Assembly (NCBI GenBank): GCA_026770705.1
Contig: JANJGN010000021.1
Coordinates: forward strand, 100,936,001 to 101,000,000
DNA length: 64,000 nucleotides
From: Isurus oxyrinchus
Lineage: Eukaryota
Reading direction: 5' to 3'
Shown: in pieces, positions 9,977 through 41,180 of the stretch
Layout of the letters: every line of letters begins with the position of its first letter
How positions within the stretch are numbered: position 1 is the first letter of the stretch
Notes under the pieces: model-generated
Databases searched by the model: none
The model's input: the letters and a program-made list of their open reading frames with translations, nothing else
Told to the model about the DNA's origin: nothing
Program-made: the position numbers and the translations under genes

Positions 9977-10004
9977 TCACTGTGTCATTATCATCATCTT
10001 TTTC
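9977..10004 (-). CDS. NCR3: NCR3-like A putative last coding exon (short cytoplasmic tail)
   Basis: Strong acceptor tttacttcctttgcag; the phase-2 join gives RKKMMIMTQ*; a minus-strand AATAAA lies near 9315-9320. Confidence 0.5.
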
Positions 10005-13000: not shown

Positions 13001-16000
13001 AAAACCTGAATTGTTAGTCTTTATGAAGCTCTGAAAGTGCATCAGGCATGCGTTAAATATCAATCAATTTTAGTAAAACTTTACTTGATTTTGCAACACC
13101 TGGTAAAAATACAAAGCCGGGGAATTGCATTTACGACTTCCTCCCGAGTGGTCAGGTTGATTATGGAGCATCGCGCTGTGAAGTTCAATGCAGATTCAAT
13201 TTCTGGACACCAGATAATTCTTACAGGATATAGTCTCACAAACTTTCCCTTGAATTTGGAAGGGGGTTCTTGACACCACGCGGAAAGAACCGGAGAAACC
13301 ACAGGAAAACAAAGTGCCCGGAGATTGATCCAACTGATGCTGGTTTACAGGCAGCAGTTTTCAGTAAAAGAAATACTGGACGCTTTGGACGAAATATCAC
13401 CTTATGCCTTCCCATGGGAAACCTCTGCAGTGAAACCAATGTCTTGTGAACCGGCATTCTCCTTTCGCGTTTAAAATCATTTAACGTTGCGGGGTGGGGT
13501 GGGGGAGGGGATAGCGAGGGTATGGGCTGCTGGCTAACTCGTGTCTAGCAAGAGTTCGGGCGCTCAGACGTGCCACAGATCCAGGCATTGTCTGAGCTGT
13601 TCTACTTGGCTAGGGCCCAAGTGCAACAAAGGCCTCAGGGTGTGCCATCTCCCGCGTGACTGTTCACACCACAAAATCTAAATCTGCACCCGGCGGTGCA
13701 CTTAATGATCATGAAAAACACAAAGTGTAAAGGGGCTGTGCACTTTGAAAAGAACAGCCGCAAAAAATCCCTTTTCTTGGAAGAAGAGTGCGACTGCTTC
13801 GCCACCGCATTATAAATACCGATCTACGTGCGTCCCAAATAGTAAATACAACATATACATCCTCAACTTACCTCTTCTGGTGGAAGCAGACTGCGCCGAC
13901 AATTCCAGTAATGCCCAGGAAAGTTACCACCACTGCACGTACGTGCCACAATGTCTTGAGGCCACTGCTCGTTTCTTCGTTGTCCGTTATCTCATGCTGT
14001 TCTCGGGAACCTGTGGAGTTAGAAGATTTCTTAAACTCTCTTCATAGCTGGCCCAAGGTAAAGTGGAACGAGAGGCGGCTTATACACCTCCTAGATGGGC
14101 TAAATGTAACTCTTCGCCGCCGTGGTGGTAATCTGACGAAGCAGATGTCTCAACCTTTAACTAAGTCCTTTAACTAAGTAATTCAATTAATTAGATGCCG
14201 GATATTGCTGTAAAACGAGAAATGCTCTGGGAGTCTGGCACTAATCAAGGCAGAATCGCAAGAATAGCAAATTGTTGTTCCCTTTGAGATTTGGTATTCT
14301 TGTTTATCTGTTCTGATGAGTGCAAGACAGAAAGCTTCCACACGTCCCCCTTTTTACAGCAACATTCTATTAACTACCAAGGCGTCAGGCGGGCAAATCA
14401 ATCCGATTTTATCAGCACCACTGGACACTTGTTCTCAATGATGATCAAATCGGAAGACTTGTTCCTTGGCGCCTTGCTTATTGTCCCATTTGTTGAACCA
14501 TGCTATCCTCACCACGGTCTCTCTTAAACTCAACCCATGCCTCAGAAATAGCCAGAGGCACGCGCGCTAGTAATTATTCCAATTAACAACGGACAAATTA
14601 AAGGAGGAACCGAGAGGCTTCATGTCAATCACCTACCCTGGAAAATTTCTATCCTTAGGCTTGTAGGTGTTGATATCTACGCATTTATCTCGGTTATTGT
14701 GTACTCCTTCGAGCACTGAGTTTTCAGTTGTGTGTCGGACTTTGAGGGGGTGTTAGGAGGTTCAGCTTTACGGGGTCGGGGGGGGGGCGGTTTGCGGCTA
14801 CCTGGAGAGACTGGGGCATCTGGGATTTTTGCACTTACAGCAGAAAGGGTCGTGAGTAGAATTACCAGAGGTGTTCAAAATGACTGAAAGGTTGATAAGA
14901 CAGAAACTGGTGCTAATGGCAGGAGGCTCAGTGACCATAGGACACAGGTTTCAGGTAATTAAAAAAATAATAAAGCCAGGGAGGAGATAAATAAATTTTT
15001 ATGTGTGATTTTGAATGCCTTGCCTGAAAGGGCGGTGGAACCAGATTACATAGAAAGTTTCAAAAGGGAATTGGACCAACATTTCAAAAGGGAAGACTTT
15101 CAGAGCTATAGAGGAGTGGAACGAATTAGCATTACTTTCGGAGAGCCGCCGCAGGCCCGGTTATAGATTCATAGAATGGTTAGAGCTCAGAAGGAGGCCA
15201 TTCGGCTTGTTGCGCCTGTGCTGATTCTCTGCATGTATGATTTAGCCAGTCTCAGACCACGCCATTTCCCCATAGCCCTGAAATATAGTTCCTTCGGATA
15301 ATTATCCAATTCCCTTCTGTTAGGCACAATTAAACCTGCCCCCACCACATGCTCAGGCAGTGTATTTCAGATCCTAACCACTCGATGCGCATAAATGGCA
15401 TGCCCCGCCCCTCTCGCCCCCCATCGTTTTGTTCCTTTGCAAATCACCTTAAATCAGTGACCTCTTGTTCTCATGCTTCCGAAAATGGGAAGCTTCTCTC
15501 ACTCGACGTTGTCTAGACCCCTTGCAGTTTTTCAGGCCTCTACCAAAACTCTCAACCTTCCCTTCTCTAAGGAGAACAACGCAGGCATCTGCAATCTATC
15601 CGCAACTGAAAACTGTCGTCACTGTCACCATTCTTGTGATTTCTGCACCTGCCTAAATCCCTCATACCCTTCCTAAAGTGTGGTGCCCAGAACAACTGAA
15701 GGCTCTTCATAACTTCCTTGCTATTATGCTGGTTCCCTTCTGAAACAGGAATCCCTTATGCCTTTGGGAAGCATGCTCTCAGCTGCCTTGCCGCAGTCAA
15801 CGATTTTTGCACATATACCCGCAGGTTTCCCTGTCCCTCCCCCCTTTTAAACTGGTACTTTTGGTTTATATTGCCTCATTCTCTGCTGTATGACTCTCTT
15901 ATCTGTGATATTTAAGTCAAAACTCGTCTTGGGCTGTGTTGCCAAACGGGTCAAATGGATCACTCCACGGCCTATTTCTGCATTTCAATCCCCTAACTGC

Positions 16001-18148
16001 AAAATAAAGCGCAGGACCAGATGATACTTTAAGCGAGGAGAACGCTGTTCGCGACTAGTCGATCAAAACTTATTGATCGGTTGATCATCTGATGGATCGC
16101 TGACACTGTCAAGTGCGAGGAGGGTGGGGGCAGGGGCTTTAAAATGCTGGTCATTGTTCAGGGTGCCTGCAGCTTCCGAGGCTGGACATCCCACCCTCCG
16201 GCGCTATTTTGGGCGGGGTGACGGCCTGTGAGCCGCTAATTCGCGGCAATTAGCGTATAATCTGATGCGGTACGACGGCGTGCCCGGGAACTGGAATGCC
16301 GCAGACTTCCCGGTGCGGAACCCGCCGTCGGTGAGCGACCGGATTATTCAGTTCCAGGTTCGGGATTGTGCACTAAGGTCCCAGACTGGAATGACACCAA
16401 TAACACAGAGAAGGATGGCCGGTTAAAACCACCGATCGCATCTTTTAGGCTATAAATATTAAATAATAAACTTGCCACGGATCACGGTCACTGTGGTCCC
16501 TGCTCCATATGCTACACCGATTCCCATCATTTCCACTTTGCAAAAATAGAACCCGGTGTCCTCCGGTTGCAGATCGATTATTCGAATGGACGCGTTTCTC
16601 CTCTCACTGAAATCCTCTTTAGTTGCCCCGAACACCCTACCTCTGAACTCCGCTGTACTGTTGGAAACTTCATTCCCCTGCTTGGTGCCTCTGTGCCACC
16701 TGTAGCCACCGACTCCAGCGGGACCCTTATATGTACAGCTAAGGTCCGCCGCTTGTCCCCTGGCTTTGGTGAGGGATTGCGGGCTCTGGATTACCGTGAT
16801 ACTTCCAACAGTAACCGCTGGAGGTGGATGAAATAAACAAGTTACAAGGTAGGGTGAGATGCTCTTTCCATGAAAAATATTGTACACTGTATCAGGCAGG
16901 GACGCTCGCGTCTTTTAAAGAAGTTTTGACCCTTTAAATTAATTCTTTTTAAATGTTGTTCTGGTTGAGTGAATAATACCTTCCGCTAATCCGGCAAATG
17001 GCAATTTTCGGGATAAATTATTCGTATTAGCAAGTTAATATATTGTAAAAAAAAACATGGATTTCAACGTGGTAGCATTGACCGCATGTAGTCTGTGTTG
17101 TCAGTTGTTGCACAGTTTTCAGGCAAAAAATCTAATTTAATTAAGGGCGGTAAAGAACCTGTGGCGGGAAAATGCCTCTCAGCTCATCAAATACCAAACC
17201 TCTGTTATATGAACTACCATCATAACCTTTTAATTGTACATAGAGCACCCCCATATGAACCTCTATTGTTAGCTGTAAGAATCACTGTAAGTTTCTATTA
17301 TTTTGAACAAATACACGATTCTTGCTTTTAGTTTAATATTTTCTGTCTTTATAATTTTCTAGTGATCCGTCTTGTTGTACTTCATGGCTTCGGTGTAGTA
17401 GACAGGGAGAACTTTATAGCATTTCATATGAAGTTCCGTCTTACACAGCCCCACTCCCGCCTTCCTTCTTTCGGGACCAAACCGTTTAATTTTTGCTTGG
17501 AAAGGGCTTCGCTGATCCTCTTTGCACTTTCCCAGTCCAATAGTGAGAAGAGTGGAACCGAGGTTTCTAAATAGAATTGATTCGTGTAGTTAGAAGCTTA
17601 GTACAGTCATATGGCGCTGTCGTGCGTTTAAATCCTAACATTCTGTAAGCGTTTTTTAAAAATGCCCTCTTATATGTTTTATATGTCGGCTATTATCTTA
17701 TTAGCACGTCAGAGTTAAGAACTAAGAGAAGTGGGAAGAAATTGCCTTTAGAAATTATTAGTATATTATTTTTTTAAAAAAGCGTGGTTGTTTGTTTTTT
17801 GGACCATTGACTTAGGAACACCTCGCTGTTAGTTAAACAATATGGATAAGTAGTCATGACGCTTGCATGGATTTGAAATCCGCATGTTTCTTCATAATAT
17901 GAATCATTTCAAAATGTAGAAAGCTGCCCCTCTTAAAGCCTAACGCCCGTTTATGTATCCAGATATCCATCATCAACATCCAAGGGTACTTGGATTCGAC
18001 AAATGAAGCGATATAGCAATGCAGTAGAAAAATAGATTGCTACGTTTCTGGGTTCTATATCGCCCAGTTGGAATTTTAAAATAAATAGTTCCTTACCAGT
18101 GAGCATTGTCGTAATCCAGGTTGTCTCAATAACGTGGCTGAAGTTCAT
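9977..18148 (-). CDS. NCR3: NKp30/NCR3-like receptor A, activating type (leader, V, stalk-TM with Arg, short tail); about 185 aa
   Basis: Predicted exons 18097-18148 (MNFSHVIETTWITTMLT, donor G|gtaagg), 16479/16476-16817 (V domain), 13872-14010 (stalk+TM) and 9977-10004 (tail RKKMMIMTQ*). Phases join 1-1-2. The V domain has EVSNSTAEFRGRV and CKVEMMGIGVAYGAGT, matching the NKp30 motifs EVRNGTPEFRGRL and CRVEVLGLGVGTGNGT from memory. The last exon is the least certain. Confidence 0.8.
11645..11900. mobile_element. Inverted pair of Penelope-type terminal fragments containing a minimal hammerhead
   Basis: 11655-11758 is the reverse complement of about 11788-11897; related copies at about 14270-14362 and 41860-42140. 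Confidence 0.7.
11843..11878 (+). ncRNA. Minimal type I hammerhead ribozyme motif
   Basis: ATGTC-CTGAGGA-AT-gcaag-AT-GAAA-AGCT-TC-GACGT: helix I (5 bp), CUGANGA, helix II (2 bp), GAAA, palindromic helix III, UC cleavage site. Confidence 0.6.
13872..14010 (-). CDS. NCR3: NCR3-like A exon 3 (stalk + transmembrane with Arg)
   Basis: Acceptor ctaactccacag|GT, donor AG|gtaagt; open frame SREQHEITDNEETSSGLKTLWHVRAVVVTFLGITGIVGAVCFHQKR. Not in the ORF track. Confidence 0.85.
14770..15880. mobile_element. Two tail-to-tail degenerate CR1 3' fragments (about 14770-15150 +, 15165-15880 -)
   Basis: Similarity to CR1 3' ends (aggaggccattcggc, ctctaaggagaacaac). Confidence 0.7.
16476..16817 (-). CDS. NCR3: NCR3-like A exon 2 (VJ-type IgSF V domain)
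   Basis: Acceptor ttgtttatttcatccacctccag|CG; canonical C...W...DxGxYxC; YGAGT diglycine G strand; donor at 16479 (GT) or 16476 (GC). Confidence 0.93.
18097..18148 (-). CDS. NCR3: NCR3-like A exon 1 (leader)
   Basis: ATG at 18148, 17 codons + 1 nt, donor gtaagg; phase 1 matches the V-exon acceptor; intron about 1.3 kb, similar to gene B. Only moderately hydrophobic. Confidence 0.65.
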
Positions 18149-23098: not shown

Positions 23099-23149
23099 TC
23101 ACGTCGTTTTCTTCTTCACTGTTGCATATGGCTCATTCGTCTTTTCCGT
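23099..23149 (-). CDS. NCR3: NCR3-like B last coding exon (TEKTNEPYATVKKKTT*)
   Basis: Acceptor ccttaacgtaaacag; phase 0; YATV motif; TGA at 23099-23101; AATAAA about 235 nt downstream. Confidence 0.68.
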   Translation of the reverse strand, partial: TEKTNEPYATVKKKTT

Positions 23150-26100
23150 CTGTTTACGTTAAGGTTATAAAACATATTATCACAGTCAACATAGAACGAA
23201 ATGAAGCAAAATATGTTAAAAATGCGAAGTTGGTGAAAATGAAGAAAGATCGTTGTAAAAATACTCTAACTAAATATTGATACGAATACACAGAAGCCTT
23301 AAAATTACATTGAAGGGCGGGTTAGCCTCTGCATTATGTTTGACGAAATTTAAATCCTATGTATAATGAATAATGCACGATTGTATTCCACATAAGTCTC
23401 CAGGCACTGCGTTGTCATTCAAAAACTTAGAGCGTTTCTATCTAGCTTTCGGCCTCAGGGAGGCACAGGATCTTTAGTTTAACTGGGCTGAAAAGACCCT
23501 TACTAACGGAAATTCAATCCAGTGTTTTTAAGTGTTGGATCTTCAATAACTCTAATAATTTCTTGGTTTGTAATTAGAAACATGGGTAATTTTTACACTT
23601 TGACTTGATTAAGTAAAAAGAAATCTAACAGCTATGTATTAATTCAGAAATCAGAGTCCATTCCAACCGCCGCTTGACCATTTTTGGTTACTCAATCATA
23701 ATGCAAATATAAAGGAGAAAAACTGAGGATGCAGGGAATCTAAAATAAAAAGAAAAGCATGATGGAAATACTCAGACGGGTCAGGCAGCACCTGTGGAGA
23801 GAAACATGGTCGAGGTGACATTTAAGGTCTGATTGTTTTATTACAGGGCAAATATTGTTGCGTTTGAGAAAGGCAACAGGCAGACAAGAAAAGTGGAGGA
23901 CGCGGGATCGATGGATTTGATGGATGAACGAAAAGCCGGCTGTTTTGTATGGATCCGTTTTTATACCCTCCGATTTATGTTCAAGTCCATTGATTTCAAT
24001 GGAAAGAATATCAGTCATATAGCACAACGGTCAACAAATGGGATGTTTTGTGTAGTGCAAATGTCCAATTCCATAACCAAACTGAATAAGGGCAGAAATG
24101 ATACAAGAAAAGGAGACTTATGACAAATGTAAGGTTTATAATACCGTGGAGTTCCAAGCTAAATATAGAAAGTACAGGGGAGATCTAAAGAGGGTAGAAA
24201 TAATATGAACAAAGAGAGATCATGAGAATGGATTAACGACTAATTTATGGATGACAAAAGTCTACTGTAAACATAAAAATTGTGCATGAATTGTGGCGAA
24301 TTAGTGCTCAAAAAGAGATATTCTTGTGGAGGCAGAAGGCATGGTTGAGGTACTAAATGAATACTTTGCATCTGTCTTCACCAGAAAAGAGGATGCTACT
24401 AATGTTAACAGTAAAATATGCGGAAGTGGTGCCCTTAGATAGATTAAAAATAAATAAAGAGGAGTTACTCAAAAGGTTGGCAGTCCTCAAACTATCTTCT
24501 TAGTCAGATGGGATGCATCGTAGCTTACTGGCGGGATTAAGGGTCGCAATTCCGGTGGCTTTGGCAACAATCCTCCATGGACAGAGGGGTGGTGACAGAG
24601 GTGTGCTTATTATATGCTCCTTCTTAAAAAAAAAGACTAAACCCACCAACTACCACCCAGTCCATTGTGGGGAACCAGCGGCAACTTAATTGGCATTTTA
24701 GAAACTTTTTTTCTTTTGCTCTTTCATGGGATATGGGCATCGCCTACCTTACTGATGCCTAACTGCCCTTTTTTAGCTGAGTGGCTTGGAAGGGCAGTTA
24801 AGAGTCAACCAAATTGCTGTGGGTGTGGAGTCACATGTAGGCCAGCCCAGGTAAGATTGGTAAATTTCTTCTGTAAAGGGGCATTAGTGAACCAGATGGA
24901 ATTTAACAGCAGTCGGTGATAGTTTCATGGTCACAATTACGAGACTAGCTTTACATTCCAGATTTATTAATTGAATTCAAATTCCACCAACTGCCATGGT
25001 GGGATTCGAGCCCGTGTCCCCAAAGCATTAGCCTGGGTCTCTGAACTACTAGTCCAGTGACATTATCATGATGCCGCCACCGTAGCTCCCAAATGTAGGG
25101 ACTAATGAATGATATTCAGCAGTGATTTGTTAAAGGGAAATGGTGCTTGGCTAATTGATTGAATTAGTTGATGAACTGACTGAATTGTTGAGGATTGTGT
25201 GGTTGATATTGTGTATATGGACTTTCAAATGGCGTTGGACAAAGCACCACACAATACATTTGTTAGCAAGATCAAAACCCGTGGCTTTAAAAGGACAGTG
25301 GCAGTGTGGATGCGAGATTGGCTTACGGTAAGATAGCAAAGAGTGGCGATGGAAGGTGGTTTCTTGGACAGGTGGGAAGGATAGAATCATAGAATTGTCA
25401 CACCACAGAAGGAGGCCATTCAGCCCGTTGCGTCCGTATGGATTTTTTTGGAGAAGTCACTCAACTAATCCCACTCTCACGTGCTTTCTCCACAGCCCTG
25501 CCAATCTCTCTTCAAGTGCGGATGCAATTCCCTTTTGAATGACATAGTTGTTCTGTCTACACCACATCCTCGGATTATTTATTCAAGAATCCAACTATTC
25601 GCTGCACAAAAACATGCTTCCTCATGTCGGCCTTGTTTCTTTTGTGAATCACCTTAAATCAGTATCCTCTGCTTCTCGATCCTTCCTCCAAAGGAAACAG
25701 TTCATATCTATTCTCTCCAGGCTCCTCATGATTTTGAATACATCTATCAAATCTCCACATAATCTTCTGTTCTCTAAAAAGAACAGCCCCAGATTCCCAA
25801 TCGATCTACGTAACTGAATTTTCACATACATGGATCCACTTTCATGAATCTTATCTGCAACCTTCACAATCCTTCCTAAATAGCGGCGCCCAGAACTGGA
25901 TGGAATACACCAGTTGAGGCCAAACCAGTGTCTATATAGATTTATCATCAATCCTTGCATATGTGCTTAATGTCCCTATTTATATCTGCCAGGATTCTGC
26001 ATGCTTTATGAAGCACTTTCAACCATAGTTTCATGGTCACCATTACTGAGCTAACTTTCAGTTCCAGGTTCATTTTTAAGGGAATTTTTAACATTTAATT

Positions 26101-29100
26101 TAAATTCCATCAGCTACTGTTGGGTTTTGAATCCAGGTCCCCAGGACACTAGGCTGGGCCCCAGAATTAATCCCGTAGTAACATTACCACTCCATTACCA
26201 CCATCGCTCCTGTGCCTTCAATTACATGTATACATATACACCCAGAGCATTCAAATGTGCCTCCAGAGAGATACAGGAATGAATTGTTGGATCAGATTGC
26301 AGCCAGCCTCCGGGGCCCTAAACTCTGGAATTTCCTGCTGAAGCCTCTCTACCTCTGCCTGACTCGTCACCATTAAGGCACTTCTTAAGGCCTATTTCTT
26401 TGACCCAATTATGGTCGCCTGTCCTAGGATCTAGATCCATGGCTCGGTGTCAAAGTTTCCTCCATAATTCACTGCTATGAAGTGTCTTGAGAAGTTTTAC
26501 CAACATTCACACCATACAAGTGCCAGGCAAAGGCTATCTCCAACAAGAGTGCACCTAGCTAGTTCAGCTTGACACTCAATGGTGTTCCAATCGCTGAATC
26601 CCACAGAATCAACATCCTGGGGATCACCATTGACCAGAAACTGAACCGTTTCAGGCATATAAACATTATGGCAGGAGGGTGGGATTCTATACCAGTAAAT
26701 TGCCTCTTATCTACCTGCCTGCCCGCCATCTAAAAGGCACAAGTTGGAGTGTGATGGGATGCTGTCCATTTGCCCAGAAGGATGCAGCTCCAGAGCTCAT
26801 GAAGCTCGACACCATTCAGGCCAAAGCAGCACACTTGATTAGCACTCCATCCACTAGCTTAAACACTCACTCTCTCCAGTACCAATGCACAGTGACAGCA
26901 GTGTGTACCATCTACATGATGTACTGCAGCAAGATTCCTACGCCAGCACCTTCCAAACTCACGACCTCTACCAACGAGAAGGACAAGAGCAGCAGACACA
27001 AGGAAACACTACCACCTGTAAATTCACCTCAAAACCGCATGTCATCCTACTTTGAAATATGTCACCACATTTTCACTGGCGCTGGATAAAAATCCTGGAA
27101 CTCCCTCCCTAACAGCACTGTGGTGGTACATACACCACAGGGCCTGTAGCGGCTCAAGAAGGCAGCTCACCGCCACCTTCTCAAGGGCAACTAGGGATGG
27201 GCAACAAATGCTGGCCTAGCCAGCGATGCCCACAACCCATGAAAGAATAAAATCAAATGCGCTATTTAAATGTAAGTTGCTGTTATTGTTAGGTGAAATT
27301 TATCTCCCAGTAGGTTAAGTTTGCTTAATGGACTTAAGCATTTGCGAAAATTATTTCTGGGTTTATTTTAGTACAAAACTGGCGGGTTTCACTCTGAAGC
27401 ACAGATCATTGACATGAGGAATTGTGTCTGAGTAATAATTCCTCAACAGAAAATATATTCTCTGCCTGGATTTCAGTAACTGTAAGTTTACATACCACAT
27501 GGTTGAAATCGGTTGCATGTACTGCACCAAGCAAATCTGTCACACATAGAAACAAAGAAAAATATCAAGATATGAAAAATTGATTGAGGGGGCTGCTATA
27601 AATTAAAATGATGGTTCTAGGAAACAACACTTGAGGAAACTGGAAAAAATCTCTGTTTATGAAGATGAAAAAAACACATAAATGACAAGGAAGTATCTAA
27701 CATACACTGTGTCTAATGTCTTATGCCACACGCTATAGTGTGGTTACACCGCTTATCTGATAGTTAAGTGAGGCAAAAATGATTTTTTTTATTACCAAAG
27801 GGAGACTGTTCAATAACGGACATATATTTAATATGAACGACTTTTCTCTTTCTTTCTCATTAACTATAGCCATAGGTTCAGAGTTAAAAAAATATTAACG
27901 GAGTTCCCTTTATTGCATTTTAACACATTGTCACAAAAGCCCATCTACTTCACTCAAGTCCCTCCGGGAAGTGTATCTGATACCCTTAGCTTGTCTGTGA
28001 CTCCAGACCCACAGCAATGTGGTTAATCCATAACTCCATAACTGCTCTCTGAAGCCACTCAATTGTCTCAAAGGCAATCGGGATGGGCACTAAATGCTGG
28101 CCCTCTTAGTGATGCTCACATGCCCTGAATATTTTTTTTTCAAACACCTACCAGACTAATGAAAGCCAAACAATTGTGTCATACGTTGAAAGGATAATAT
28201 GGACCATATTAACTTTCAATGTGAAAACGGAAACAATCCTTACCATGAGGGGGAATGTCAGAATAAACCTCTTCTTCACTGAACCGCAAAAGAAGGAGAA
28301 AACAAACAATTACATTGTTTACAAACACACAGGATTCGACAGGTGAAATTAAAGAAACAAAGTAAAACGTCTGTTTTTTTACGCACCATTGAAAAGATGG
28401 GGGGAAATCTGTGGAAATACAAAGAGCAAACAAATAAATCATAACCATGTAGCAACATTGTATTCAGCCATGTCTCTGTTTTAACATTTCTCCATAACTA
28501 TTAATACATTATTTTATAAGGCTCCTTAGACAGCATTCTTCAAACCCAAGTCCGCTCCTACTTAGAAAGACAAGGGCAGCAGATAGATGGGACAACACCG
28601 CCTAGAATTTCCCTTTCAAATCATTCACCATCCTGACTTGGAAATATATTGCCTCTCCTTCACTGTCGCTGTGTCGAAATCCTGGAACTCCCTTCCTAAC
28701 AGCACTGTGGGTGTACCTGCACCACATGGCGGTGAGGAAGGCCCTCCTCGTCAGATTCTTCCAACACACCAGGAGGCTCAACTCCTCTGCACGTTGCCCT
28801 CGAGGTGGCTGTGGTGGGGACGAGACCGTTGTTCACCTCCTTGTGGACTGTGCCTTTGCAAAGAAGGTCTGGAGAGAGATGCAGTGGTTTCGGTCGAGGT
28901 TCATCCCGAGCAGTTCAGTGACACAGGACTCTGTTGTTCCCAGGGACACACACCGAGACAAACATCTAGAGGATGCAGCTGGAGGATCATCAACTCGGTG
29001 AAAGACACTCTTTGGTCTGCCCGAAACTTGTTGGTCTTCCAGTGCAAAGAGTTGTCCCCGACCGAGTGTTGCAGACTGGCACATTCCAAGGTCCAGGACT

Positions 29101-32100
29101 ACGTGCTGAGGGACGCACTGAAGCTTGGGGCAGCCGCCGCAAAGGCGCAATGGGGAAAGGTTACTGTCTAAGATCTTTCTGCCATAGTGCACCAAGGGGC
29201 TGTGAATTGTATAACCTCTCGGGCTGTTCAGCTCACAATGCGTGTATGCATTGAATACTAATTGTATTATAATTGTAGTGAAGGACCTCAGAGTGCAACA
29301 TGATGCATGATTGAAAACTCCAATATCATTGCACTGTCTGACTGTCTGTAATGACCACATTGAAAAGACTGTAACATTCATTGATTGTATTGAAGCACCT
29401 CGTGATCCATGTGTAAAAGTTGAATCTGATTGCACTTTTTGTGATGGCGATTTTGAAATGTTTTTTGATGTTCTTCTAGGTATTTTATGAATAAAGTATA
29501 TTTTTCACAAAACAAACATGGACTGCAGTGGTTCAAGAAGGCAGGTCAGGCTTCTCAAGGGCAATAAGAGTGCACCATAAATATTGACTTAGCCAGCGAT
29601 GTCCACATCTCATGAATGAATAAAAATAATGTTTATTTGCGGGCACTGGGAGTAGGCAAGGGGTACTGTAGTAAGCTAGCACATTGTCCCTTCATTATAG
29701 CGTCAGGTCTTATTCCGACTCAAACAGCCCGCTGAGCCTAACCTGTGTTCACATGTGGAAAGGCAATATGCAAATTAAATTTTGACCCAGAGTCGAATGA
29801 GCAGGTTCGAACTGAATGCAACAAGGCAGGATTAAACCCACCACATGTACTTGATTCAACAAATGAAAACGATATTATATCAATCCAACATTAAGATACT
29901 CCAGGGATTCTGGTGAAACAGTAACGTTGGTAATGTGCAGATAACTCGATACTCCTTTGGGCCACCTCTCCAATTCTACAAGCATCTAACTGCCCTTGTT
30001 ACTGATACCATGGGTTATTTTAACTTAATGAGCAGCGTGGGAAACCCCTGGGACCGGGTGCAAAGCCAATTCTCCACTCCGCTCAATATTACCCTCCATT
30101 GAGTTCAATAGAGGGAGTGGGTGCTGGTGTGGGAGGTAGCGATGTTAAATTATCAAACAACAAGCTACAGAGGCTGTACCTGAGCAATCTATGTAAAATA
30201 TCGAAGCCTCATTGAACGTTGGCATTTAGAAAAATTACATGATTCTTTATTCGGGGATGCTTACCATCAAATGTAGTTTCATCATAGATCGGCTCATCCC
30301 TTCATGAGAACAAAGAAAGAGGAGATCAGTGTCACTGTCCATTTACTCAAGCTACAAAGCAATCAGAGTTATGGAGCTAGATAATGTCAAATGGGAGATT
30401 CACCAACCTTTCGAGTGGTAGAGGAAAATCTGCAAAAGTAAAGAATAACTTTTGTAACGTCAATGCAATCCATCTAAAGATATTTTGACTAGAGGACACT
30501 GTTCCCATGGCGGGTGGGTTAATAACCAGAAAACTTAGATTTCAATTAACTGATAACAGTAATGGAGGGAAACTTGAGGCCTTTTTAGTGCAGCGAGTAG
30601 TTATGGTATGGAATGTACGACCTGAAAGTGTGGTGGAAGCAGATTATCGCTGATAGACTTGGTTCAAATTCAGTTTAGAATAATGAGAGGTGATCTTCTT
30701 AAAACATATAAGACCCTGAGGGGGCTTGATAGGGTAGATATCAGGAGGATGATTCTATTTGTGGGGGAGACTAGAACTAGGGGACACAGTTTAAGAACAA
30801 GAGGTCGACCTTTTAAGATGGAGATGAGGAGAAATTTGTTCTCTCAGTTATTATTTGGAATATTATTCCCCAGAGAGAGTGGAGGCTGTCACTGAATTTA
30901 TTCAAGGCTGAGTTAGATAGACCTTTGATAGATAAGGGAGTCAAGGGTTATGGGGGGCATACAGGAAAGTGGAGTTGAGACCACAACCAGATCAGCCAAT
31001 TCAATTCTATAAATGGATGCTACTTACTAGGTGCGTTCATTTCATCATAGGTGGAAACATTACTATCTACCCAGGGTCTGGAAAAGATAAAACAAAATTG
31101 CATTATTATGTAACAAAGGTCCAGGTATCTAAAAAAAATGTCTTATTACTGTCATAACCATCAACTAACCTTGGTACTTGTGCGCCTAATTCTGTGGAGA
31201 TACGAAATCGAAAACTGAGGTTTATCCTTTGATGCAGGTTTGATACCGCGAAGAGAAATTAAAGTTATATGCGCTTCTTAGGCCCGTCCATCAACACAAA
31301 TGAAAAAAAAACTATTGAAGCACTTTGCTAAGAATAAATATCATTTTTAAATGCATAAAGAGCGATTCAAAAATAGACTAGTTAAATACATTTACTCACC
31401 GTTACATACTCACCATTAAAATGAACACTGCTGCAAGGAGCTACATTGCTTTAGAATCAAAGAAAAACATTGATGTTACTGAACTGAATGTCTAAATGCA
31501 CATCCATGAATTTTTAAAAAAAAAAACAGAAAGAAAATAGCGTAAGATCTTCAAAATTCACTGACCGTGGTAACCCTGCAGTGTCCGAGGCTGCTAAAAT
31601 CAATTGTGATAGAGAACGCGTTACAAATTTACTACATTTATCATAATATCTTCTTATTTGGAAACTGCAGCGCTCCAACCACAATCCTGCCGAAATCAGC
31701 CAATGATGTAAATTGGTCTTTGCCGGTGCAGTTTATCTAACCAACTGACTCAATTTCTATTCATCTGCAAGTGTCTAGTATTAAATGTATTAGCATTTAA
31801 CGTAGATTACTGTACGTAATCAGCAAGTAGCATACTGAAGCTCAGAAAATATAAATACAATAACCTTAAAATTCCTGCTAATAATAGTTACGGGGGAACA
31901 TTTGCCACACTATGGGACATAGAACTGTTGGGAGCCTAGTTTAACAACAGGCAAGTTAAGTCATCCATTAATAAAGCCGACAATTCAACGTCATACTAAA
32001 CCCCTAACGGTTCATTGGCTAATGTCACCTGGACTACTTTGTAGCCTATCACTCAAATGGATTTCTAGCAGTAAAACATTGCAATTTCAATTAGTCACTT

Positions 32101-35100
32101 ACTAGCTAGAGTCGCATCGTCATAAATCCGATCATTGCTTCTGAATCACAAACAGAAAGGCTGCATTATCGCAAAGTATAAAATGCAATATACAGTAATA
32201 TCGAGAAAAAGAAAAGTTTTTTGAGAGATTTACCGACCTCTGAAATTGTGATCCACCTATTGTGAAAAGTAAAATTAAAGAGATGAGTAAGAATTTGAAT
32301 AGGACCCTAACTGTTGCAACGCAAATATCACTGCATTAGTTTGCATTGTTATGAACGTATCCATATTTCGGGAGGACCCGGAAACGGAGTAATGTTCTTT
32401 GTTACCTTTTATCGAAAAGTAACATGCGGAGAACAGAACAAAAGCGCCCAACGCACCGGCACCGGCGTACATGAGTGAGTAGGACGTCAGTGACTCTCTG
32501 GGTTTCTCTGCCGTCGGTTCAACCGGGACATAACCTAGGCAGAAGAAAGCAAGAGTTTGATGCCCCAAAATATCGCTTTCTATTTCCTTCTCACCACAGA
32601 TGACGAATATACACTGATTCCCGCGACCAACATCTCCATTTTGTAGGATGATCTGTCATCTCAATGGATGAAGAGAACGACAGATGCAGTCGTGTTTTAA
32701 GAAGTTATGAGCAACTGATTGTTAATGTGTCCAAGTTCGACTGCTGCCTTGTCAAAGCATCTGACGAATATAAATCCGTAATAGAATTCTCTGTTCCCAC
32801 TATTCTTCGGGAGAGGGGTTGGCGTTTTATGTGTCAGAATGCATGCACATGTGAGAGTATCGGCTTGTTTTACGGAACGGGGCAAGATAAAATAGAGTGT
32901 AAATGACAAAGCGGTAGGACACAGTGAACATTTTCATGGGCTGTTCCGAGATCAAAATTCATTCAATTATAGATTAGTTACAGTAACGAAAGAGGCTATT
33001 CGGCCCTAGCTCTCCTAAGGAGCAATTTACCTAGTGCCACTCTCTGTTTTCTCCCCTTTGCCCTATGCATTTTTGCTTTTCAGGTAATAATATAATTCCT
33101 TCTTGAATGCCTCGATTGGGCCTGCCTCCACCACACGCTCAGGCAGAGCATTCCAGACCCTCGCCACTCGCTGCCTGACAAAGTTATTCCTTGTGTCTTC
33201 CTGCGGTTGTATAGAGCCTTGGTGAGGCCACACCTGAAGCATTGTGTGCAGTGTTGGTCCCCTTACCTAAGGAAGGATATTATGGCCACAGAGCAAGTGC
33301 AAAGACAGTTCATTAGGCTGATCGCGGGAATGGTGGGATTGTCCAACGAGGGAGATTGAGGAGATTGGGCCTATATTCCCTAGGCTCTAGAGTCTGGAGT
33401 TTAGAAGAATGAGAGGTGATTTCATTGAAGTGTACAAAATTCTTACAGGGTTCGGCAGGATAGATGCAGGAACCACGTTCTGGGGGATCTAGAACTAGGG
33501 GACAGGATCTCAGAATAAGAAGTAGGCCATTTAGGGCTGAGATGAGCAGGAATCTCTTCAGCCTGAGGATGGTGAATCTTTGGAATTCTCTATCCCAGAA
33601 GGCTGTGGAGGCTCAGTCATTCCGTATATTCAAGACAGTGATTGGTATATCCCTGACTATGAAAGACATCAAGGTATCCCGCATAGTGCGGGAAAACATA
33701 ACATTGAAGTAGATGAATGACGGAGCAGGCTCGAGGAGCAGAATTACCTCCTACTGCTCCTATGTCTGCCAATTACTTTAAACCTGTGCCGTCTTCTTTT
33801 CCTTTCTTGTACCAATGGGAGCAGTTCCCCACCCCCTCAGCCAGCCCCGCTCCACCCCCGATCGACTCTCGATTGCTCTTTTCTTATTCCCTGGGAAATA
33901 CGTTTGGTTTGTAAGATCTACCTTTAGCTTGCCATGTGTTTGATCCAATCTGTGTATCCGTGTGTGTAAATATTCACAATTTCTTCATGAAAATTTGCTG
34001 ATATGATGGGAATCATTATTAAACAGAAAGGGGGGGGGGGTGGGGAGAGAGATGTTTATAGTCGGCTGGCTTCTATAAATCTGCAACCTGTCATAGACAA
34101 AGAATGGTATCTTGAATTTCATTACATTAATATGTTTTCTTTACATGTAAGTCCGTCGGTGTTAATTCCACCATTATACACTAACCGAATGACAGACCCA
34201 ATGGTTATCGTGGAATATTTAACTTGTGACAAGCATTCAACTCACGCGCTACGTTAAGTGTTGTTCCTGCTCCATATGTTATGTTAAATCTCATAAGTTC
34301 CACTTCGCAGTAATATGTCCCTGAATCGTAATGCCTCAAGTCTGTTATATTAATGGAGGCGTCCCTCTTTTCTTTAAAATCCTCAGCGCTTGCCCGAGAC
34401 ACTCGCCCTCTGAATTCCGCAGCTTGCTCGGTGACTTCAAGCCCGTTTTTGGTATTTTTGTGCCACTTGAAGAAACCGACTCCCGAGGGCCCTTCGTACG
34501 TGCAGTTCAGCAGCACCGACTGCCCCTCGGTGGCATTAATGAAGAGCGGGGTCTGGGTAACTCTGATGTTTTCTGCAGCAATTCCTGTCAATACACGAAA
34601 TGGAGAATTTCTGAAGCACAACATCCCCACACCTTGTTTCATCTGATGAAAAATGAACCTTGGGGGAATAAAAGGCGCAAGTAAACACGTCGGGTCCTGG
34701 AAACCGTTAATGAAGGCCTCAAGGAGATTGCGCTAATCCCCAAAGCCAGGAAGAGAGTTTCCAAACACAGAAAAGTCGACCTCGTTTGGGTGCATTCTTC
34801 CCAGACCCGAGTCCCCGCTTAAGGCCGGAGAGACAGCGAGCGGAGAGCTTACAGGGAAATTTTCGGTGCAAAGGCAACTATTTTCTATCAACTCGATTTA
34901 TTCGGCTGAAAATCGCAGCGCACAGGCCCACAGGAGTCGCTGGGGGTCGGGGGGGGGGGGGGGGGGCGGGGTGGGGAGCCTTGGCGATTCCTCCTGTTGT
35001 GGCCGATATTCTAGTTTACCGCCTGGGCCGAACACGTCCTGTGGACGGACACAGAAAGGAAATTCTAGGGGCAGATTCCCCCGGGCATTGACGAACCGCC

Positions 35101-35791
35101 TTCCATTGGATAAAATCTTAGTTAACCTGAGGCCCTTCACTCCAGATTCATTTCTACCTTCTCCTCTGGCGATGTTTCACGCCCAGGCTCAAATTTGCAG
35201 CATTCTGGTTGACTAACTGAACCCAGCAAGCATGATTGAATATTTCGCGGCGCCGCATTTAGAGGATATAACAAAGTCAGCCAGTTTTACGGCTATCATA
35301 TATTTATTAATTCAGTTTTTTTCCACCCTCGCCTCTGTGTCAAGGTTATGGATTGGAGCCTCCCTCCAGCATCATTTCATATAATTTAGGCGCATATCTC
35401 AGTGCAGCGCTGAAGGAATGGTGAGCGGCGGAGATACGGTTCTGTCTACGAGAGCGTGTATGGACCTCTGTGTGCTCAGTGGCTTCAAGTCGGTGGCACA
35501 AATTCCACGTTTCTATTCTACGAACACCAAAAGTAACACATCTGACCTGGCCGTCAACCCTTCCCAATTAAGGGAAATATATGGTTCACTCTGTTCCTGT
35601 ACGATTATACCGCCATGCCCATGGCTACTGCTGTGCTCTTTATATACTAAGTCCTAGGATACCTTTCTGACCCCCCCCCCCCCCCCGCCCCCCACCACCC
35701 TTTTTGAGATTCTAGCTCCTCTGACCGAAGTGTGCAATCGGTACTTACCAGGGAAAAGAGTCAGTACCCACACTATATACCTGGAATCCAT
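23099..35791 (-). CDS. NCR3: NKp30/NCR3-like receptor B, no TM charge, tyrosine-motif cytoplasmic tail; about 218 aa
   Basis: Predicted exons 35749-35791, 34246-34584, 32406-32534, 32238-32256, 28244-28278, 27496-27536 and 23099-23149. They total 657 nt, all GT-AG, with consistent phases 1-1-1-2-1-0. Minus-strand AATAAA at 22860-22865. Confidence 0.78.
24110..25990. mobile_element. Nested CR1 fragments with a tRNA-derived SINE (about 24715-25082, minus strand) inserted
   Basis: ORF 25649-25960 (RRLCGDLIDVFKIM); the SINE resembles 45240-45510 in reverse. Confidence 0.7.
26500..27252 (+). mobile_element. 3' end of a second LINE family (tail ...caagggcaattagggatgggcaacaaatgctggcc...)
   Basis: ORF 26679-27089 (KLDTIQAKAAHLI); the same tail occurs at 7500-7600, 28070, 29520, 41450 and 63400. 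Confidence 0.7.
27496..27536 (-). CDS. NCR3: NCR3-like B cytoplasmic exon (DLLGAVHATDFNHV)
   Basis: Acceptor tttttctttgtttctatgtgtgacag; donor GTG|gtatgt; converts phase 1 to phase 0 as the model requires. Confidence 0.65.
28244..28278 (-). CDS. NCR3: NCR3-like B cytoplasmic exon with Tyr motif (EEEVYSDIPPH)
   Basis: Long polypyrimidine tract ttgttttctccttcttttgcggttcag; donor CATG|gtaagg. Confidence 0.7.
28730..29515 (+). mobile_element. 5'-truncated Tx1/L1-clade LINE with TSD, inserted in a LINE tail
   Basis: Zinc-binding motif CPRGGCGGDETVVHLLVDC; AATAAA at 29490; ACATGG duplicated at 28724-28729 and 29516-29521. Confidence 0.8.
30490..30995 (+). mobile_element. CR1 3' fragments
   Basis: ORF 30659-30895 (MRGDLLKTYKTLRGLDRVD...TRGHSL). 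Confidence 0.8.
32238..32256 (-). CDS. NCR3: NCR3-like B putative 19-nt cytoplasmic micro-exon
   Basis: Acceptor ttttacttttcacaatag; (G)GSQFQ; donor AG|gtcggt supplies the phase 2 needed by the next exon (an alternative donor at 32234 is phase 0). Confidence 0.5.
32406..32534 (-). CDS. NCR3: NCR3-like B exon 3 (stalk + uncharged transmembrane)
   Basis: Acceptor ttcttctgcctag|GT; YVPVEPTAEKPRESLTSYSLMYAGAGALGAFVLFSACYFSIK; donor AAAG|gtaaca. Confidence 0.85.
32960..33765. mobile_element. CR1 3' fragments (minus-strand tail, then plus-strand ORF2 end) in NCR3-B intron 2
   Basis: ORF 33464-33712 (TRGQDLRIRSRPF...LWNSL). Confidence 0.8.
34246..34584 (-). CDS. NCR3: NCR3-like B exon 2 (VJ-type IgSF V domain)
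   Basis: Acceptor gtattgacag|GA, donor C|gtgagt; 339 nt; AEFRGRV, DSGTYYCEVE, YGAGTTLNV; 56/108 residues identical to the gene A V domain in an ungapped manual alignment. Confidence 0.93.
35749..35791 (-). CDS. NCR3: NCR3-like B exon 1 (signal peptide)
   Basis: MDSRYIVWVLTLFP + G|gtaagt; phase 1. Confidence 0.85.
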
Positions 35792-37769: not shown

Positions 37770-40700
37770 CCAAGTCAGCCAAAGGATCTTGGATCGGAAG
37801 GTCTAGAATCCTTATGGGTGGAGGTAAGAAATAACAAAGGGAACAATGCGCTGGTGGGAGCAGTCTATAGCCTCCCTGACAGTAGCTATCACGTGATAAT
37901 GAGAGCATGTAAAAAAGGCTGTACATTATTCATGGCTAACTTTAATCTTCATGTAGATTGCGAAAATCAAATTGGCAGAGATAGACACGAGCAAGGATTA
38001 ATAGAGTGTATTCAAAACAGTTCCTTAGAACAATATGTTGTGAATCCAACCAAGATTCAGGCTATTTTGGATCTGGTAATGTGTAATGAGGCAGGGTTAA
38101 TAAATGGTCTCAGCGTGAAGAATCCCCTAGGAAACAGTGACGATAATATGGTAGAATTTAGCATTCAGTTTGAGGGTGACTTGGTCAGAAACAACTGTGC
38201 TAAACTTAAATAAGGGTAATTACAAAGGAATTAGGGCAAGGCTGGCGGAAGTGGACTGGGGCAGCAGTTTAGCAGAAAAGATGGTTGATGAACAATGCCA
38301 GATATTTAAGAAAGTAGTTCATGACTCTCAGCAAAGATATATCCCAGTGAGGAAGAAGAATTCAAAGAACCAACCATGGTTAACCAAGGACGTTAAGGAC
38401 AGTATCAAATTGAAAGAAAAAACAAACAATGTGGCAACGATTAGTGGTAAGCCAGAGGATTGAGAAAGTTTTAAAAACCAACAAAAGATCACCAAAAAAT
38501 AATAAAGAGGGAGAAAATAAACTTTGATGGTAAACTGGCAAGTAATATAAAACAGGCAGTAAAATTTCCTTTAAACATACATAGAAACATACATAGAAAA
38601 TATGAGCAGAAGGAGGCCATTGGGCCCTTCGAGCCTGCTCCACCATCTGAGGAAGGACGTTCTTGCTATACAGGGAGTGCAGCAAAGGTTATCAGACTGA
38701 TTCCTGGGATGGCAGGACTGACATATGAGCAGAGATTGAGTCGGTTAGCATTATATTCGCTGCAGTTCTGATCATCCAACTCGATAGTCTGCTCCTGCTT
38801 TCTTCCTGTATTCTTTGATCCCTTTCGCCCCAGAGGTATATCTAACTCCTTCTTGAAAACGTACAATCATTTTCTGTGGTAGCGAATTCCACAGGCTCAC
38901 CACACTGGGTGAAGAAATTTCTCCTCATCTCAGTCCTAAATGGTCTACCCTGTATCCTCAGACTGTGACCCCTGGTTCTGGACTCCCCCCATCTTCGGTA
39001 TCATCCTTCCTGCATCTACCCTGTCTAGTCCTTTTAGAATTATATCAGTTTCCATGAGGTCCCCCATCATTCTTCTGAACTCCAGCAAATATAATCCTAA
39101 CCGACTCAATCTCTGCTCATATGTCAGTCCCGCCATCCCAGGAATCGGTCTGATTCCTGCACTCCCTGTATAGCGAAAACATCCTTCCTCAGATAAGGAG
39201 ATCAAAACTGTCCACAATATTCCAGGTGTGGTCTCACCAAGGCCCTGTATAATTGCAGCAAGACATCTCTGCTCCTGTACTCGAATCCTCTGGCTATGTA
39301 GGCCAACAAACCATTTGCCTTCTTTACTGCCGGCTGCACCTGCATAGTTAACATCATGTACAAAAGGAAGAGAGGGGCCAAAGTAAACATAGTCCTCTTA
39401 GAGAATGAGGCTGGGGAAATAATAATGGGGAACCAAGAAATGGCAGAGGATTTGAATAAATACTTTGCTTCAGTCTTCACGGCAGAAGATGCTAATAGCA
39501 TTCAAAAATACTAAATGATCAAGGGGAAAAAGGGATGAGGAAATAAATATAATAACTATCACTAGAGAAAAAGTACTAGAAACTAAAGACTGATAGGTCC
39601 CCTGGACCTGATAGGTTGCACCCTAGGGTATTAAAGGAAGTAGCTGCAGGGATAATGGATGCACTTGTAGTAATCTCCCAAGAATCCTTCGATTCTGAAG
39701 AAGTCCCAGAGGATTGGAGAACAGCCAATGTAATACTCTTATTCAACAAGGGAGGGAGACAAAAACAGTTAACTATAGGCCAGTTAGCTTAACATCTGTC
39801 ATTAGGAAAATGTTGGAGTCCATTATAAAGGATGTAATAGCAGACCATTTAGACATACACAATCTAATCAAGCAGAGCCAGCATGGCTTTATGAAGGGGA
39901 AATCATGCCTAACAAATTTATCAAAATGCTTTGAGGAGGTAACAAGCAGGATAGATAAAGGGGAACAGGTGAATGTAAGATATTTGGATTTCCAAAAGGC
40001 ATTTGATATGGTGCCGCACATAAGATTACTTAATAAGGTAAGAGCCCATGGTGTTGGGGGTAGTACATCAGCATGGATAGAGAATTCGCTAACTATTAGA
40101 AGACAGAGAGTTGGGATAAGGGGGGCATTTTCGGGATAGCGACCTGTAACTAGTGGAGAGCCACAGGGATCAGTGCTGGGGCCACAATTATTTACAATAT
40201 ATATTAATGGCTTGGATGAGGGAAGTGAAAGTCCTCTCACCAAATTTGTGGATGACACAAAAAAGGTGGGAAGGTAAGCAGTGAGGATGACACAAAGGGT
40301 CTACATATGGTTATAGACAGGTTAGGAGTGAAGGAAAAGAATTGGCAGATGGAATATAACGTGGGAAAATGTGATGCTAAGCACTTTGGTAGGAAGAATA
40401 GAGAAGTTGAATATTATTTAAATGGAGAAAGACTGCAGAAGGCTGCAGCACAGAGGGATTTGGGAGTCCTTGTGCATGAATCCCAAAAAGCTAACATACA
40501 TGTTCAACGGTTAATAGGGAAGGCAAATGGAATGTTGGCCTTTATTTCAAAGGGATTAGACTATAAAAATAAGGAAGTCTTTCTAAAACTATAGTAGACA
40601 CTCTAGTTAGACCACACCTAGAATACTGTGAACAATTTTGGTCCCCTTATCTAAGAAAAGATATACTAGCATTTGAGGCAGCCCAGAGAAGATTCAATAG

Positions 40701-41180
40701 GTTGATCCCGGGTATGAAGGGATTTTCTTATGAGGGGAGGTTGAGTAGGTTGGGCCTGTACTCATTGGAGTTTGTAGGAATGAGAGGCGACCTTATTGAA
40801 ACATTTAAGATTCTTAGGGGGCCTGACAAGGCAGATGTTGAGAGGTTGTTTCCTCTTGTGGTGGAGTCTACGGCCAGAGAGCATAATCTCAGAGTAAGGG
40901 GGCGCCCACTTAAGCAGAGATGAAGAGGAATCTCTTCTCTCAGAGGGCAATGAACCTGTGGAATTCTTTACAGCAGACGGTTATAAAGGCTGGGTCGTTA
41001 AGTATATTCATTGTTGAGATAGGCAGGTTTCTAATCAGTAAGGCAATCAACGACTATGGGGAAAAGGTAGGTAAGTGTCGTTGAGGATTATCAGATCAAC
41101 CATGGTCTAATTGAATGGCAGAGCAGTCTCGATGAGCTGAATGGAATACTCCTGCTCCCACGCCTTATGGTCTTATGGTC
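37770..41180 (+). mobile_element. Long CR1 LINE ORF2 remnant (endonuclease + RT), frameshifted
   Basis: ORFs with ESLWVE, ILDLV, NYRPVSLTS, QHGFMKGKSCLTNL, YLDFQKAFD.VPH and PQGSVLGP; ttatggtcttatgg tail at about 41165-41180. Confidence 0.92.
38577..39353 (-). mobile_element. CR1 3' fragment nested in opposite orientation
   Basis: acatagaaac tail repeats at 38577-38600; LYRALVRPHLEYC on the minus strand; the host ORF2 sequence resumes at about 39355. Confidence 0.85.

What the first reader, a model, noticed from the sequence alone, without database searches (positions are those of the whole stretch)
23099..32256. Hidden four-exon cytoplasmic tail with two atypical tyrosine motifs
Four tiny exons (19, 35, 41 and 51 coding nt) lie among about 9 kb of repeats and are not recoverable from the ORF track. 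They join in exact phase to give KGGSQFQSEEEVYSDIPPHDLLGAVHATDFNHVTEKTNEPYATVKKKTT*. The tyrosines are 28 residues apart, in the range of tandem-SH2 docking pairs. Both have Glu at Y-2 (EVYSDI, EPYATV), so neither is a canonical ITIM ([ILVS]xYxx[LVI]) or ITSM (TxYxx[VI]). The acidic context resembles Src-family substrate sites, and EPYATV recalls EPIYA-type Csk/SHP-2 motifs. The inhibitory function is an inference.
Basis: partly seen in the sequence, partly recalled or inferred. Interest (0 to 1): 0.72.

Follow-up and report, generated by a model that had tools for sequence, protein, structure and literature searches.

The report
Shark NKp30 pair, twelve-exon tyrosine tail
A shark NKp30-family immune receptor gene has a cytoplasmic tail predicted to be spliced from twelve tiny exons (not four) with five tyrosines, and its ligand-binding exon is nearly identical to that of a nearby gene that carries an activating-type arginine and lacks those tyrosines, so the two likely act as a brake-and-accelerator receptor pair.

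Summary
The four exons are real (minus strand, GT-AG, in phase), but they are only exons 1, 10, 11 and 12 of a twelve-exon tail. Eight missed exons (252 nt, 84 codons) make the short join stay in frame. The full model is a 302-aa NCR3/NKp30-family receptor with an uncharged TM and a 132-aa tail with five tyrosines. It aligns end to end with a horn shark RefSeq protein (71/130 identical). The tail is built from repeated two-exon modules. A paralog 635 kb away shares the V exon (338/339 nt) but has an arginine in its TM and has lost the tyrosines. This fits gene conversion in a paired receptor; a second, reciprocal pair lies beside it. Likely mechanism: Src-family phosphorylation of acidic repeats, with a terminal Y[AS]TV recruiting Csk or SHP (inferred, untested). 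No RNA support was obtained. This scan noted similar shark NKp30 pairs in two other genomes. Verdict: new variant of a known kind.

The parts
35749..35791 (-). Gene A leader exon (43 nt, ATG at 35791)
   Evidence: 11/14 aa identical to the horn shark leader; GTAAGT donor
34246..34584 (-). Gene A single VJ-type Ig V exon (339 nt, phase 1-1), NCR3/NKp30 family
   Evidence: Pfam V-set 3e-14; human NKp30 chains are the best natural single-domain PDB hits, E 7e-12 to 2e-11; 86/113 aa identical to horn shark NCR3-like
34239..35507 (-). Homogenised tract shared with paralog B (G000:C21 about 100334086-100335344)
   Evidence: 95.3% over 1269 nt; intron part 865/910, V exon 338/339; flanking 100-nt bins 63-76%
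32406..32534 (-). Gene A stalk + transmembrane exon, no charged residue in the TM
   Evidence: 23/43 aa identical to the horn shark, 22/43 to paralog B
32238..32256 (-).
   Evidence: donor position shared with paralog B; splice rank 25/1496
32103..32140 (-).
   Evidence: rank 9/1496; horn shark has IYDDI and the same +/-1-residue isoforms
31566..31593 (-). Tail exon T3, 28 or 25 nt (NAGNAG acceptor); missed; least certain exon
   Evidence: length and NAGNAG match the horn shark isoform pair; homologous in B; splice rank only 60-87/1496
31414..31448 (-). Tail exon T4, 35 nt, Cys at the module's Tyr position; missed
   Evidence: rank 3/1496; matches the horn shark
31170..31191 (-). Tail exon T5, 22-nt linker; missed
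   Evidence: rank 10/1496; homolog in B
31028..31077 (-). Tail exon T6, 50 nt, Tyr58 TYDEM; missed
   Evidence: rank 1/1496; horn shark NYDEI
30408..30429 (-). Tail exon T7, 22-nt Pro-rich linker; missed
   Evidence: rank 6/1496; matches the horn shark
30265..30299 (-). Tail exon T8, 35 nt, Tyr77 IYDET; missed
   Evidence: rank 8/1496; horn shark IYHDI
28387..28408 (-). Tail exon T9, 22-nt Pro-rich linker; missed
   Evidence: rank 5/1496; matches the horn shark
28244..28278 (-).
   Evidence: rank 2/1496
27496..27536 (-).
   Evidence: rank 23/1496; aligns to the horn shark
23099..23149 (-).
   Evidence: horn shark isoform X4 has LYSTV and the same last residues
22860..22865 (-). Candidate polyadenylation signal AATAAA of gene A
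   Evidence: only such hexamer within 800 nt of the stop
18097..18148 (-). Gene C candidate leader exon (52 nt, phase 1)
   Evidence: best leader-like hit, GTAAGG donor
16476..16817 (-). Gene C Ig V exon, 95.8% identical over 361 nt to gene D (G000:C21:100317643-100318003), flanks unrelated
13873..14010 (-). Gene C stalk + TM exon with Arg at the outer end of the TM; stop follows at once on read-through

Best explanation
Gene A is a shark NCR3/NKp30-family receptor with an uncharged transmembrane segment and a tail predicted to be spliced from twelve micro-exons, and it likely serves as the dampening partner of paralog B, which has the same V exon, a transmembrane arginine and no tail tyrosines. 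Shown in the DNA: the exons, their phases, five tyrosines (four conserved in the horn shark), five two-exon modules, V-exon identity of A and B against divergent leader, TM and tail, and loss of the tyrosine codon in all three B exons where it can be compared. Inferred: gene conversion keeps both ectodomains binding the same ligand (B7-H6-like, by family; recalled). B signals through an ITAM adaptor via its arginine. On ligation, a Src-family kinase phosphorylates A's acidic YD[DE]-type repeats and docks on them, and the terminal Y[AS]TV recruits Csk or an SHP phosphatase, giving PAG1/Cbp-like negative feedback. The gene structure deserves about 0.9, a functional pair about 0.7, and the whole mechanism the confidence given.
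For: Structure; 9 of 9 horn shark isoforms carry the T2-T9 block. Modules: the five tyrosine-position exons share a mean 15.5/35 nt versus 9.0 +/- 0.8 shuffled, with 0 of 5000 shuffles as high; phases alternate 1-2 and 2-1. Pair: V exon 338/339 nt, leader 32/43, TM 90/129. In the V tree A and B group at 96/91 support to the exclusion of the horn shark A ortholog and the catshark B ortholog. The TMs sort by type across species: Arg in B and in catshark, none in A or the horn shark. B's tail has Tyr to Ser in T2 and T6, Tyr to His in T12, and dead splice sites at T4. A second pair C/D shows the reciprocal layout, with a canonical ITIM in D. Human NKp30 uses a TM arginine to pair with CD3zeta/FcRgamma (PMC6514059, passages). 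PAG1 carries YEEI/V Src sites plus one YSSV Csk site (PMC3492796, passages). In the horn shark two module tyrosines formally match ITIM (SNYDEI) and ITSM (TIYHDI).
Against: No tyrosine of A matches ITIM or ITSM in this species. The conserved YDD/YDE motifs also resemble ADAP's pYDDV, which binds SLP-76, Nck, PLCgamma and p85 (PMC2908683, passages), and that points to positive signalling. Only 1 of 9 horn shark isoforms uses the terminal exon. Only one ortholog of the tail was found. No B-type protein was found in the horn shark. B's true last exon is undetermined, so B may be decaying. Expression and co-expression are unshown, and the V-exon identity was not checked against independent reads.
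Confidence: 0.5

Rival explanations
1. A's tail is a positive or mixed signalling scaffold (ADAP/CD6-like): phosphorylated YDD/YDE repeats recruit Nck, SLP-76-family adaptors or PI3K, so A co-stimulates and B is a plain ITAM-coupled twin.
For: Three conserved acidic tyrosines with Pro-rich linkers; pYDDV binds SLP-76, Nck and p85 (PMC2908683); one YxxM in this species; 8 of 9 horn shark isoforms lack the terminal motif; NKp30 is counted in the CD28 family (PMC6514059).
Against: The YxxM is YDEI in the horn shark. The terminal Y[AS]TV is conserved and looks like the family's C-terminal ITIM, VLYATV, seen in P0001 and P0029. In known pairs the tyrosine-tailed member inhibits (PMC5701461, abstract).
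Confidence: 0.25
2. There is no functional pair: B is a decaying duplicate, and the shared V exon is neutral conversion or an assembly or polishing error.
For: B's tail exons are broken and its last exon is unclear. No horn shark B was found. The V exon is far more alike than the adjoining intron tract (1/339 versus 45/910 differences, Fisher p 1e-5), which read collapse could also produce.
Against: B's leader, V, TM, T1 and T2 are intact and in frame. An Arg-TM ortholog sits in the same position, after a D ortholog, in catshark. The tract has 45 substitutions and 4 gaps, so it is not a copied block. C/D show the same pattern at 95.8%. A's tail region is single-copy apart from a repeat.
Confidence: 0.18
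3. One reading: the main product has a four-exon, 49-residue tail whose two tyrosines dock a tandem-SH2 phosphatase.
For: The T1-to-T10 join is in frame, so such an isoform is possible.
Against: The skipped exons have the strongest splice sites of the region, are conserved, and are present in 9 of 9 horn shark isoforms. Tyr96 is His in the horn shark.
Confidence: 0.05

Closest known systems
Horn shark (Heterodontus francisci) NCR3-like, XP_067865364.1 and eight isoforms
   Same: Ortholog by sequence: V 86/113, tail 71/130, four shared tyrosines, two shared NAGNAG variants, same C-terminus.
   Different: Has His at Tyr96; most annotated isoforms lack the last exon and three lack the TM. It is an automatic annotation; I found no paper on it in my searches.
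Human NKp30/NCR3 and the shark NCR3 family (Kinlein et al. 2021; only the title seen, in a reference list)
   Same: Single VJ-type V exon, gene cluster beside a complement C3/C4/C5-family gene, Arg-TM members (B, C).
   Different: Human NKp30 has a TM arginine and a short tail with no signalling motif (PMC6514059). A has no TM charge and a 132-aa five-tyrosine tail. The two nurse shark NCR3 proteins I could identify (QTT61898, QTT61904) are not A-type.
Paired receptors kept alike by gene conversion (Siglec-11/16; Siglec-5/14)
   Same: Near-identical ligand-binding exon, divergent TM and tail, one charged-TM member, conversion covering the binding exon (PMC5701461, abstract; PMC4042635, search listing).
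   Different: Here the partners are 635 kb apart and inverted, two pairs are arranged reciprocally, and A lacks a canonical ITIM. Function is untested.
PAG1/Cbp and ADAP multi-tyrosine scaffolds
   Same: Several acidic tyrosine motifs plus one Csk-type site (PAG1); YDD-hydrophobic motifs (ADAP).
   Different: Motif-level likeness only; no homology was shown. A has an Ig ectodomain, and its motifs come from duplicated exon pairs.

Membership tests
NCR3/NKp30 family | V-set Ig domain with the VJ encoded in one exon | tested here: met
   339-nt exon, Pfam V-set, ends in a G-x-G-T J-like strand
NCR3/NKp30 family | Closest relatives are NCR3 proteins | tested here: met
   horn shark NCR3-like at 78%; human NKp30 is the best natural single-domain PDB hit; the tree held only NCR3-like rows, so it does not test this
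NCR3/NKp30 family | MHC class III linkage | tested here: inconclusive
   a complement MG1 exon lies 21 kb upstream (C4 versus C3/C5 not resolved); class I/II genes were not searched
NCR3/NKp30 family | Binds B7-H6 | not testable with these tools
   ligand recalled from the human receptor
Activating NKp30 type | Arg in the TM and a short tail | tested here: not met
   not met by gene A; met by paralogs B and C
ITIM/ITSM receptors | [ILVS]xYxx[ILV] or TxYxx[VI] in the tail | tested here: not met
   0 of 5 tyrosines in A; 2 of 4 in the horn shark ortholog
Paired receptors | Near-identical ectodomain with divergent TM and tail | tested here: met
   V 112/113 aa, stalk+TM 22/43
Paired receptors | One charged-TM member without tail tyrosines, one uncharged member with them | tested here: met
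   one of B's possible read-through ends contains a terminal Tyr outside any motif
Paired receptors | Co-expression and opposite signalling | not testable with these tools
   no informative RNA; needs cell assays
Paired receptors | Conversion repeated in each lineage | tested here: inconclusive
   no species with both A and B proteins was retrieved

The most novel reading that the evidence does not exclude
Sharks built an NKp30 checkpoint receptor by fusing the ancient VJ ectodomain to a PAG1-like kinase scaffold made of duplicated two-exon, one-tyrosine cassettes with a splice-optional Csk site, and keep two reciprocal on/off NKp30 pairs ligand-matched by gene conversion across 635 kb. That would be a working paired-receptor system, inhibiting without an ITIM, in the oldest lineage with adaptive immunity.
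Probability: 0.25. Interest if true: 0.65.

Novelty: new variant of a known kind. Interest (0 to 1): 0.42.

Why it matters
Human NKp30 signals only through a TM arginine. This locus suggests the ancestral family had matched activating and dampening members, kept alike by conversion as in mammalian Siglecs. It gives a concrete, testable case of non-ITIM inhibition or scaffold signalling by an NKp30 relative, and shows how a tyrosine array grows by duplicating a frame-neutral exon pair. The family, micro-exon tails and paired receptors are each known, so the surprise is moderate.

Tried and rejected
RNA: no RNA holder listed. Contigs of 4 of the 8 possible RNA runs of the same species label were laid and covered essentially only repeats, not the V or TM exons; this is uninformative. 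The shared V exon remains unchecked against independent DNA reads.

A first T3 candidate (32018-31997) was rejected: it ranked 606 of 1496, scored lower against the horn shark (286 versus 302) and created a spurious sixth tyrosine. The 22-nt module test used that wrong T3 and is not relied on. The alternative T1 donor (23 nt) was rejected because it breaks the frame and B shares the 19-nt donor position.

B is not a haplotig of A: only 1.27 kb is near-identical. More orthologs of the tail: only horn shark proteins among 148 candidates and among 159 proteins scored (next best score 54 versus 227 or more). The 50%-cluster library hides close relatives. The ESM Atlas gave nothing usable (best 0.75). 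A search for a dead old V exon beside gene C found none. No fold or complex was predicted, since phosphotyrosine cannot be modelled here.

Literature: NCR3 + cartilaginous fish + ITIM gave 0 papers. Searches listed nothing on this tail or pair (listings only). Kinlein 2021, Flajnik 2012 and Ohta 2015 are not held, so they may already describe activating and inhibitory shark subtypes; I recall that they do. PMC10016382, PMC11599192 and PMC12227049 (passages) added nothing on the tail. No supplements were read.
Full report
Setting. The window is G000:C21:100936001-101000000 of a 4.98-Gb genome; the nearest proteins are from sharks. Upstream of the finding, on the minus strand, lie a leader exon (35791-35749), a V-set Ig exon (34584-34246) and a stalk-plus-TM exon (32534-32406). 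Human NKp30 chains are the best natural single-domain PDB matches (E 7e-12 to 2e-11, after three engineered multi-domain antibodies). The best protein hits were a horn shark NCR3-like gene (78% in V) and a catshark gene. Of 39 genome matches to the V exon, 22 are on this contig in two clusters. A complement C3/C4/C5-family exon lies at 56763-57023. Elasmobranch c4 genes map to the MHC class III region (PMC10751288, passages).

Checking the observation. The four exons exist with the stated lengths and join in frame. The horn shark ortholog has a 141-residue tail, however. Scanning it along the window, and then reading the splice sites, revealed eight more exons between 32140 and 28387. The twelve tail exons are 19, 38, 28, 35, 22, 50, 22, 35, 22, 35, 41 and 51 nt. 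The eight missed ones sum to 252 nt, so skipping them keeps the frame. The full model is one open frame of 302 aa with a 132-aa tail, 71 of 130 aligned residues identical to XP_067865364. Its alignment score is 302, against 13 for the four-exon tail and at most 10 for 1000 shuffles.

An independent check used generic splice weights (approximate, recalled). It ranked T6, T10, T4, T9, T7, T8, T2 and T5 at 1, 2, 3, 5, 6, 8, 9 and 10 of 1496 candidate exons; ranks 4 and 7 are variants of T4 and T7. None of 1323 opposite-strand candidates reached that score. T11 and T1 rank 23 and 25. T3 ranks only 60-87 and rests on homology: its length and tandem NAGNAG acceptor match a horn shark isoform pair, as does the NAGNAG of T2. 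All 9 horn shark isoforms retain the T2-T9 block.

Tail anatomy. T1-T10 alternate a 19-28-nt linker exon (phase 1 to 2) with a 35-50-nt exon (phase 2 to 1), separated within each pair by an intron of 92-117 nt. Each pair is frame-neutral. The five long exons share a mean of 15.5 of 35 nt, versus 9.0 +/- 0.8 in shuffles (0 of 5000 as high; the null ignores codon and exon-end bias), and carry Tyr at the same codon, Cys in T4. I infer growth by tandem duplication of a 57-nt two-exon cassette. The tyrosines are at 13 (IYDDA), 58 (TYDEM), 77 (IYDET), 96 (VYSDI) and 124 (PYATV). The horn shark keeps 13, 58, 77 and 124 (IYDDI, NYDEI, IYHDI, LYSTV) and has His at 96. No tyrosine in A fits ITIM or ITSM; two in the horn shark do.

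The partner. A second locus, gene B (C21:100333423 onward, plus strand, 635 kb away), has a V exon 338/339 identical to A's, but its leader is 32/43 and its TM exon 90/129 identical. High identity is confined to a 1269-nt tract from mid-intron 1 to 7 nt past the V exon (95.3%). The intron part has 45 substitutions in 910 nt and 4 gaps; the exon has one. At protein level A and B differ in stalk and TM (22/43) as much as A differs from the horn shark (23/43), yet their V domains are 112/113 alike, against 86/113 to the horn shark. The V tree groups A with B at 96/91 (18 rows, none dropped). B has Arg at the outer end of its TM, as does the second half of catshark XP_038671257, an annotation that fuses two genes. 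B keeps recognisable T1-T6 and T12, but Tyr is Ser in T2 and T6 and His in T12, T4 has lost both splice sites, and T3, T6 and T12 carry indels; T7-T10 were not found and a weak T11 match lies out of order. B thus looks like an activating receptor derived from an A-like ancestor.

A second pair. Gene C in the window (leader 18148, V 16817-16476, TM 14010-13873 with Arg) and gene D beside B (uncharged TM, MQYAQL and a canonical VVYSTV) share 95.8% over 361 nt, with unrelated flanks. Each cluster thus holds one tyrosine-tailed and one Arg-TM gene, and the matched ectodomains run across the clusters.

How it likely works. Shown: anatomy, conservation and the pattern of identity. Inferred: conversion keeps ligand specificity matched, as for Siglec-11/16 (PMC5701461, abstract). 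B couples to an ITAM adaptor through its Arg, as human NKp30 does (PMC6514059, passages). A dampens: its layout, several acidic tyrosines plus one terminal Y[AS]TV, parallels PAG1, which binds Src-family kinases at YEEI/V sites and Csk at YSSV (PMC3492796, passages). I give this 0.5. The main rival (0.25) is a positive scaffold, since pYDDV in ADAP binds SLP-76, Nck and p85 (PMC2908683, passages) and 8 of 9 horn shark isoforms omit the terminal exon; read-through at A's own T11 donor would add 29 residues without Tyr. A non-functional or artefactual pair gets 0.18, the four-exon tail 0.05.

Limits. There is no informative RNA, no independent read check of the shared exon, one ortholog only, and no binding data. 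The main paper on shark NCR3 subtypes could not be read; my statement that it reports activating and inhibitory forms is recalled. The two nurse shark NCR3 proteins I identified are not A-type, and three homolog searches returned no nurse shark A, but these searches are word-limited.

Novelty. This is a member of the NCR3 family by domain, exon structure and nearest relatives. It is not an activating-type NKp30 and not a formal ITIM receptor. It meets the sequence criteria of a paired receptor; the functional criteria are untested. This scan has noted NKp30 pairs or near-pairs in two other genomes (e1-8595957, e1-9823843; AI notes, not evidence) and nothing similar to this tail. Verdict: new variant of a known kind, interest 0.42.

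Noticed in passing
window 56763-57023 and 59661-59876 (+); a similar stretch near G000:C21:100354365: Exons of a complement C3/C4/C5-family gene (Pfam MG1 7e-13, C4_MG1 weak). A matching motif also appears downstream of gene B, so both NCR3 clusters may be flanked by such a gene.
   Followed up: partly
window 13873-18148 (-) and G000:C21:100315537-100322577 (+): Second putative pair: gene C (Arg TM) and gene D (uncharged TM, ITIM) share only the V exon, 95.8% over 361 nt.
   Followed up: partly
catshark XP_038671257 (P0001): The RefSeq model fuses two genes, the orthologs of D and B, into one 469-aa protein.
   Followed up: partly
G000:C21:100850951-100857640 (L008-L009): Three near-identical tandem NCR3-type V exons followed by a V exon with two stops: a multi-domain gene with a dead domain.
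   Followed up: no
G000:C21:104873087-105272570: A second cluster of 11 NCR3-like V exons about 4 Mb away.
   Followed up: no
G000:C21:100932719-100933063 (+), 3 kb before the window: Another NCR3-type V exon whose TM and tail should lie in window 1-13000 on the plus strand.
   Followed up: no
horn shark isoforms P0002, P0005, P0006: 3 of 9 annotated isoforms skip the TM exon but keep the tyrosine tail; the same skip would be in frame in gene A (phase 1-1).
   Followed up: no
window 32256 and 23149: The acceptors of T1 and T12 appear shifted by whole codons relative to B or the horn shark, keeping the frame, which suggests selection on the spliced product.
   Followed up: partly
window 38000-52500 and many introns: Fragments that read like LINE-type reverse transcriptase (recalled likeness) and short high-copy repeats; these drew nearly all contig coverage.
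   Followed up: no
window 53694-53832: Run of 139 N.
   Followed up: no
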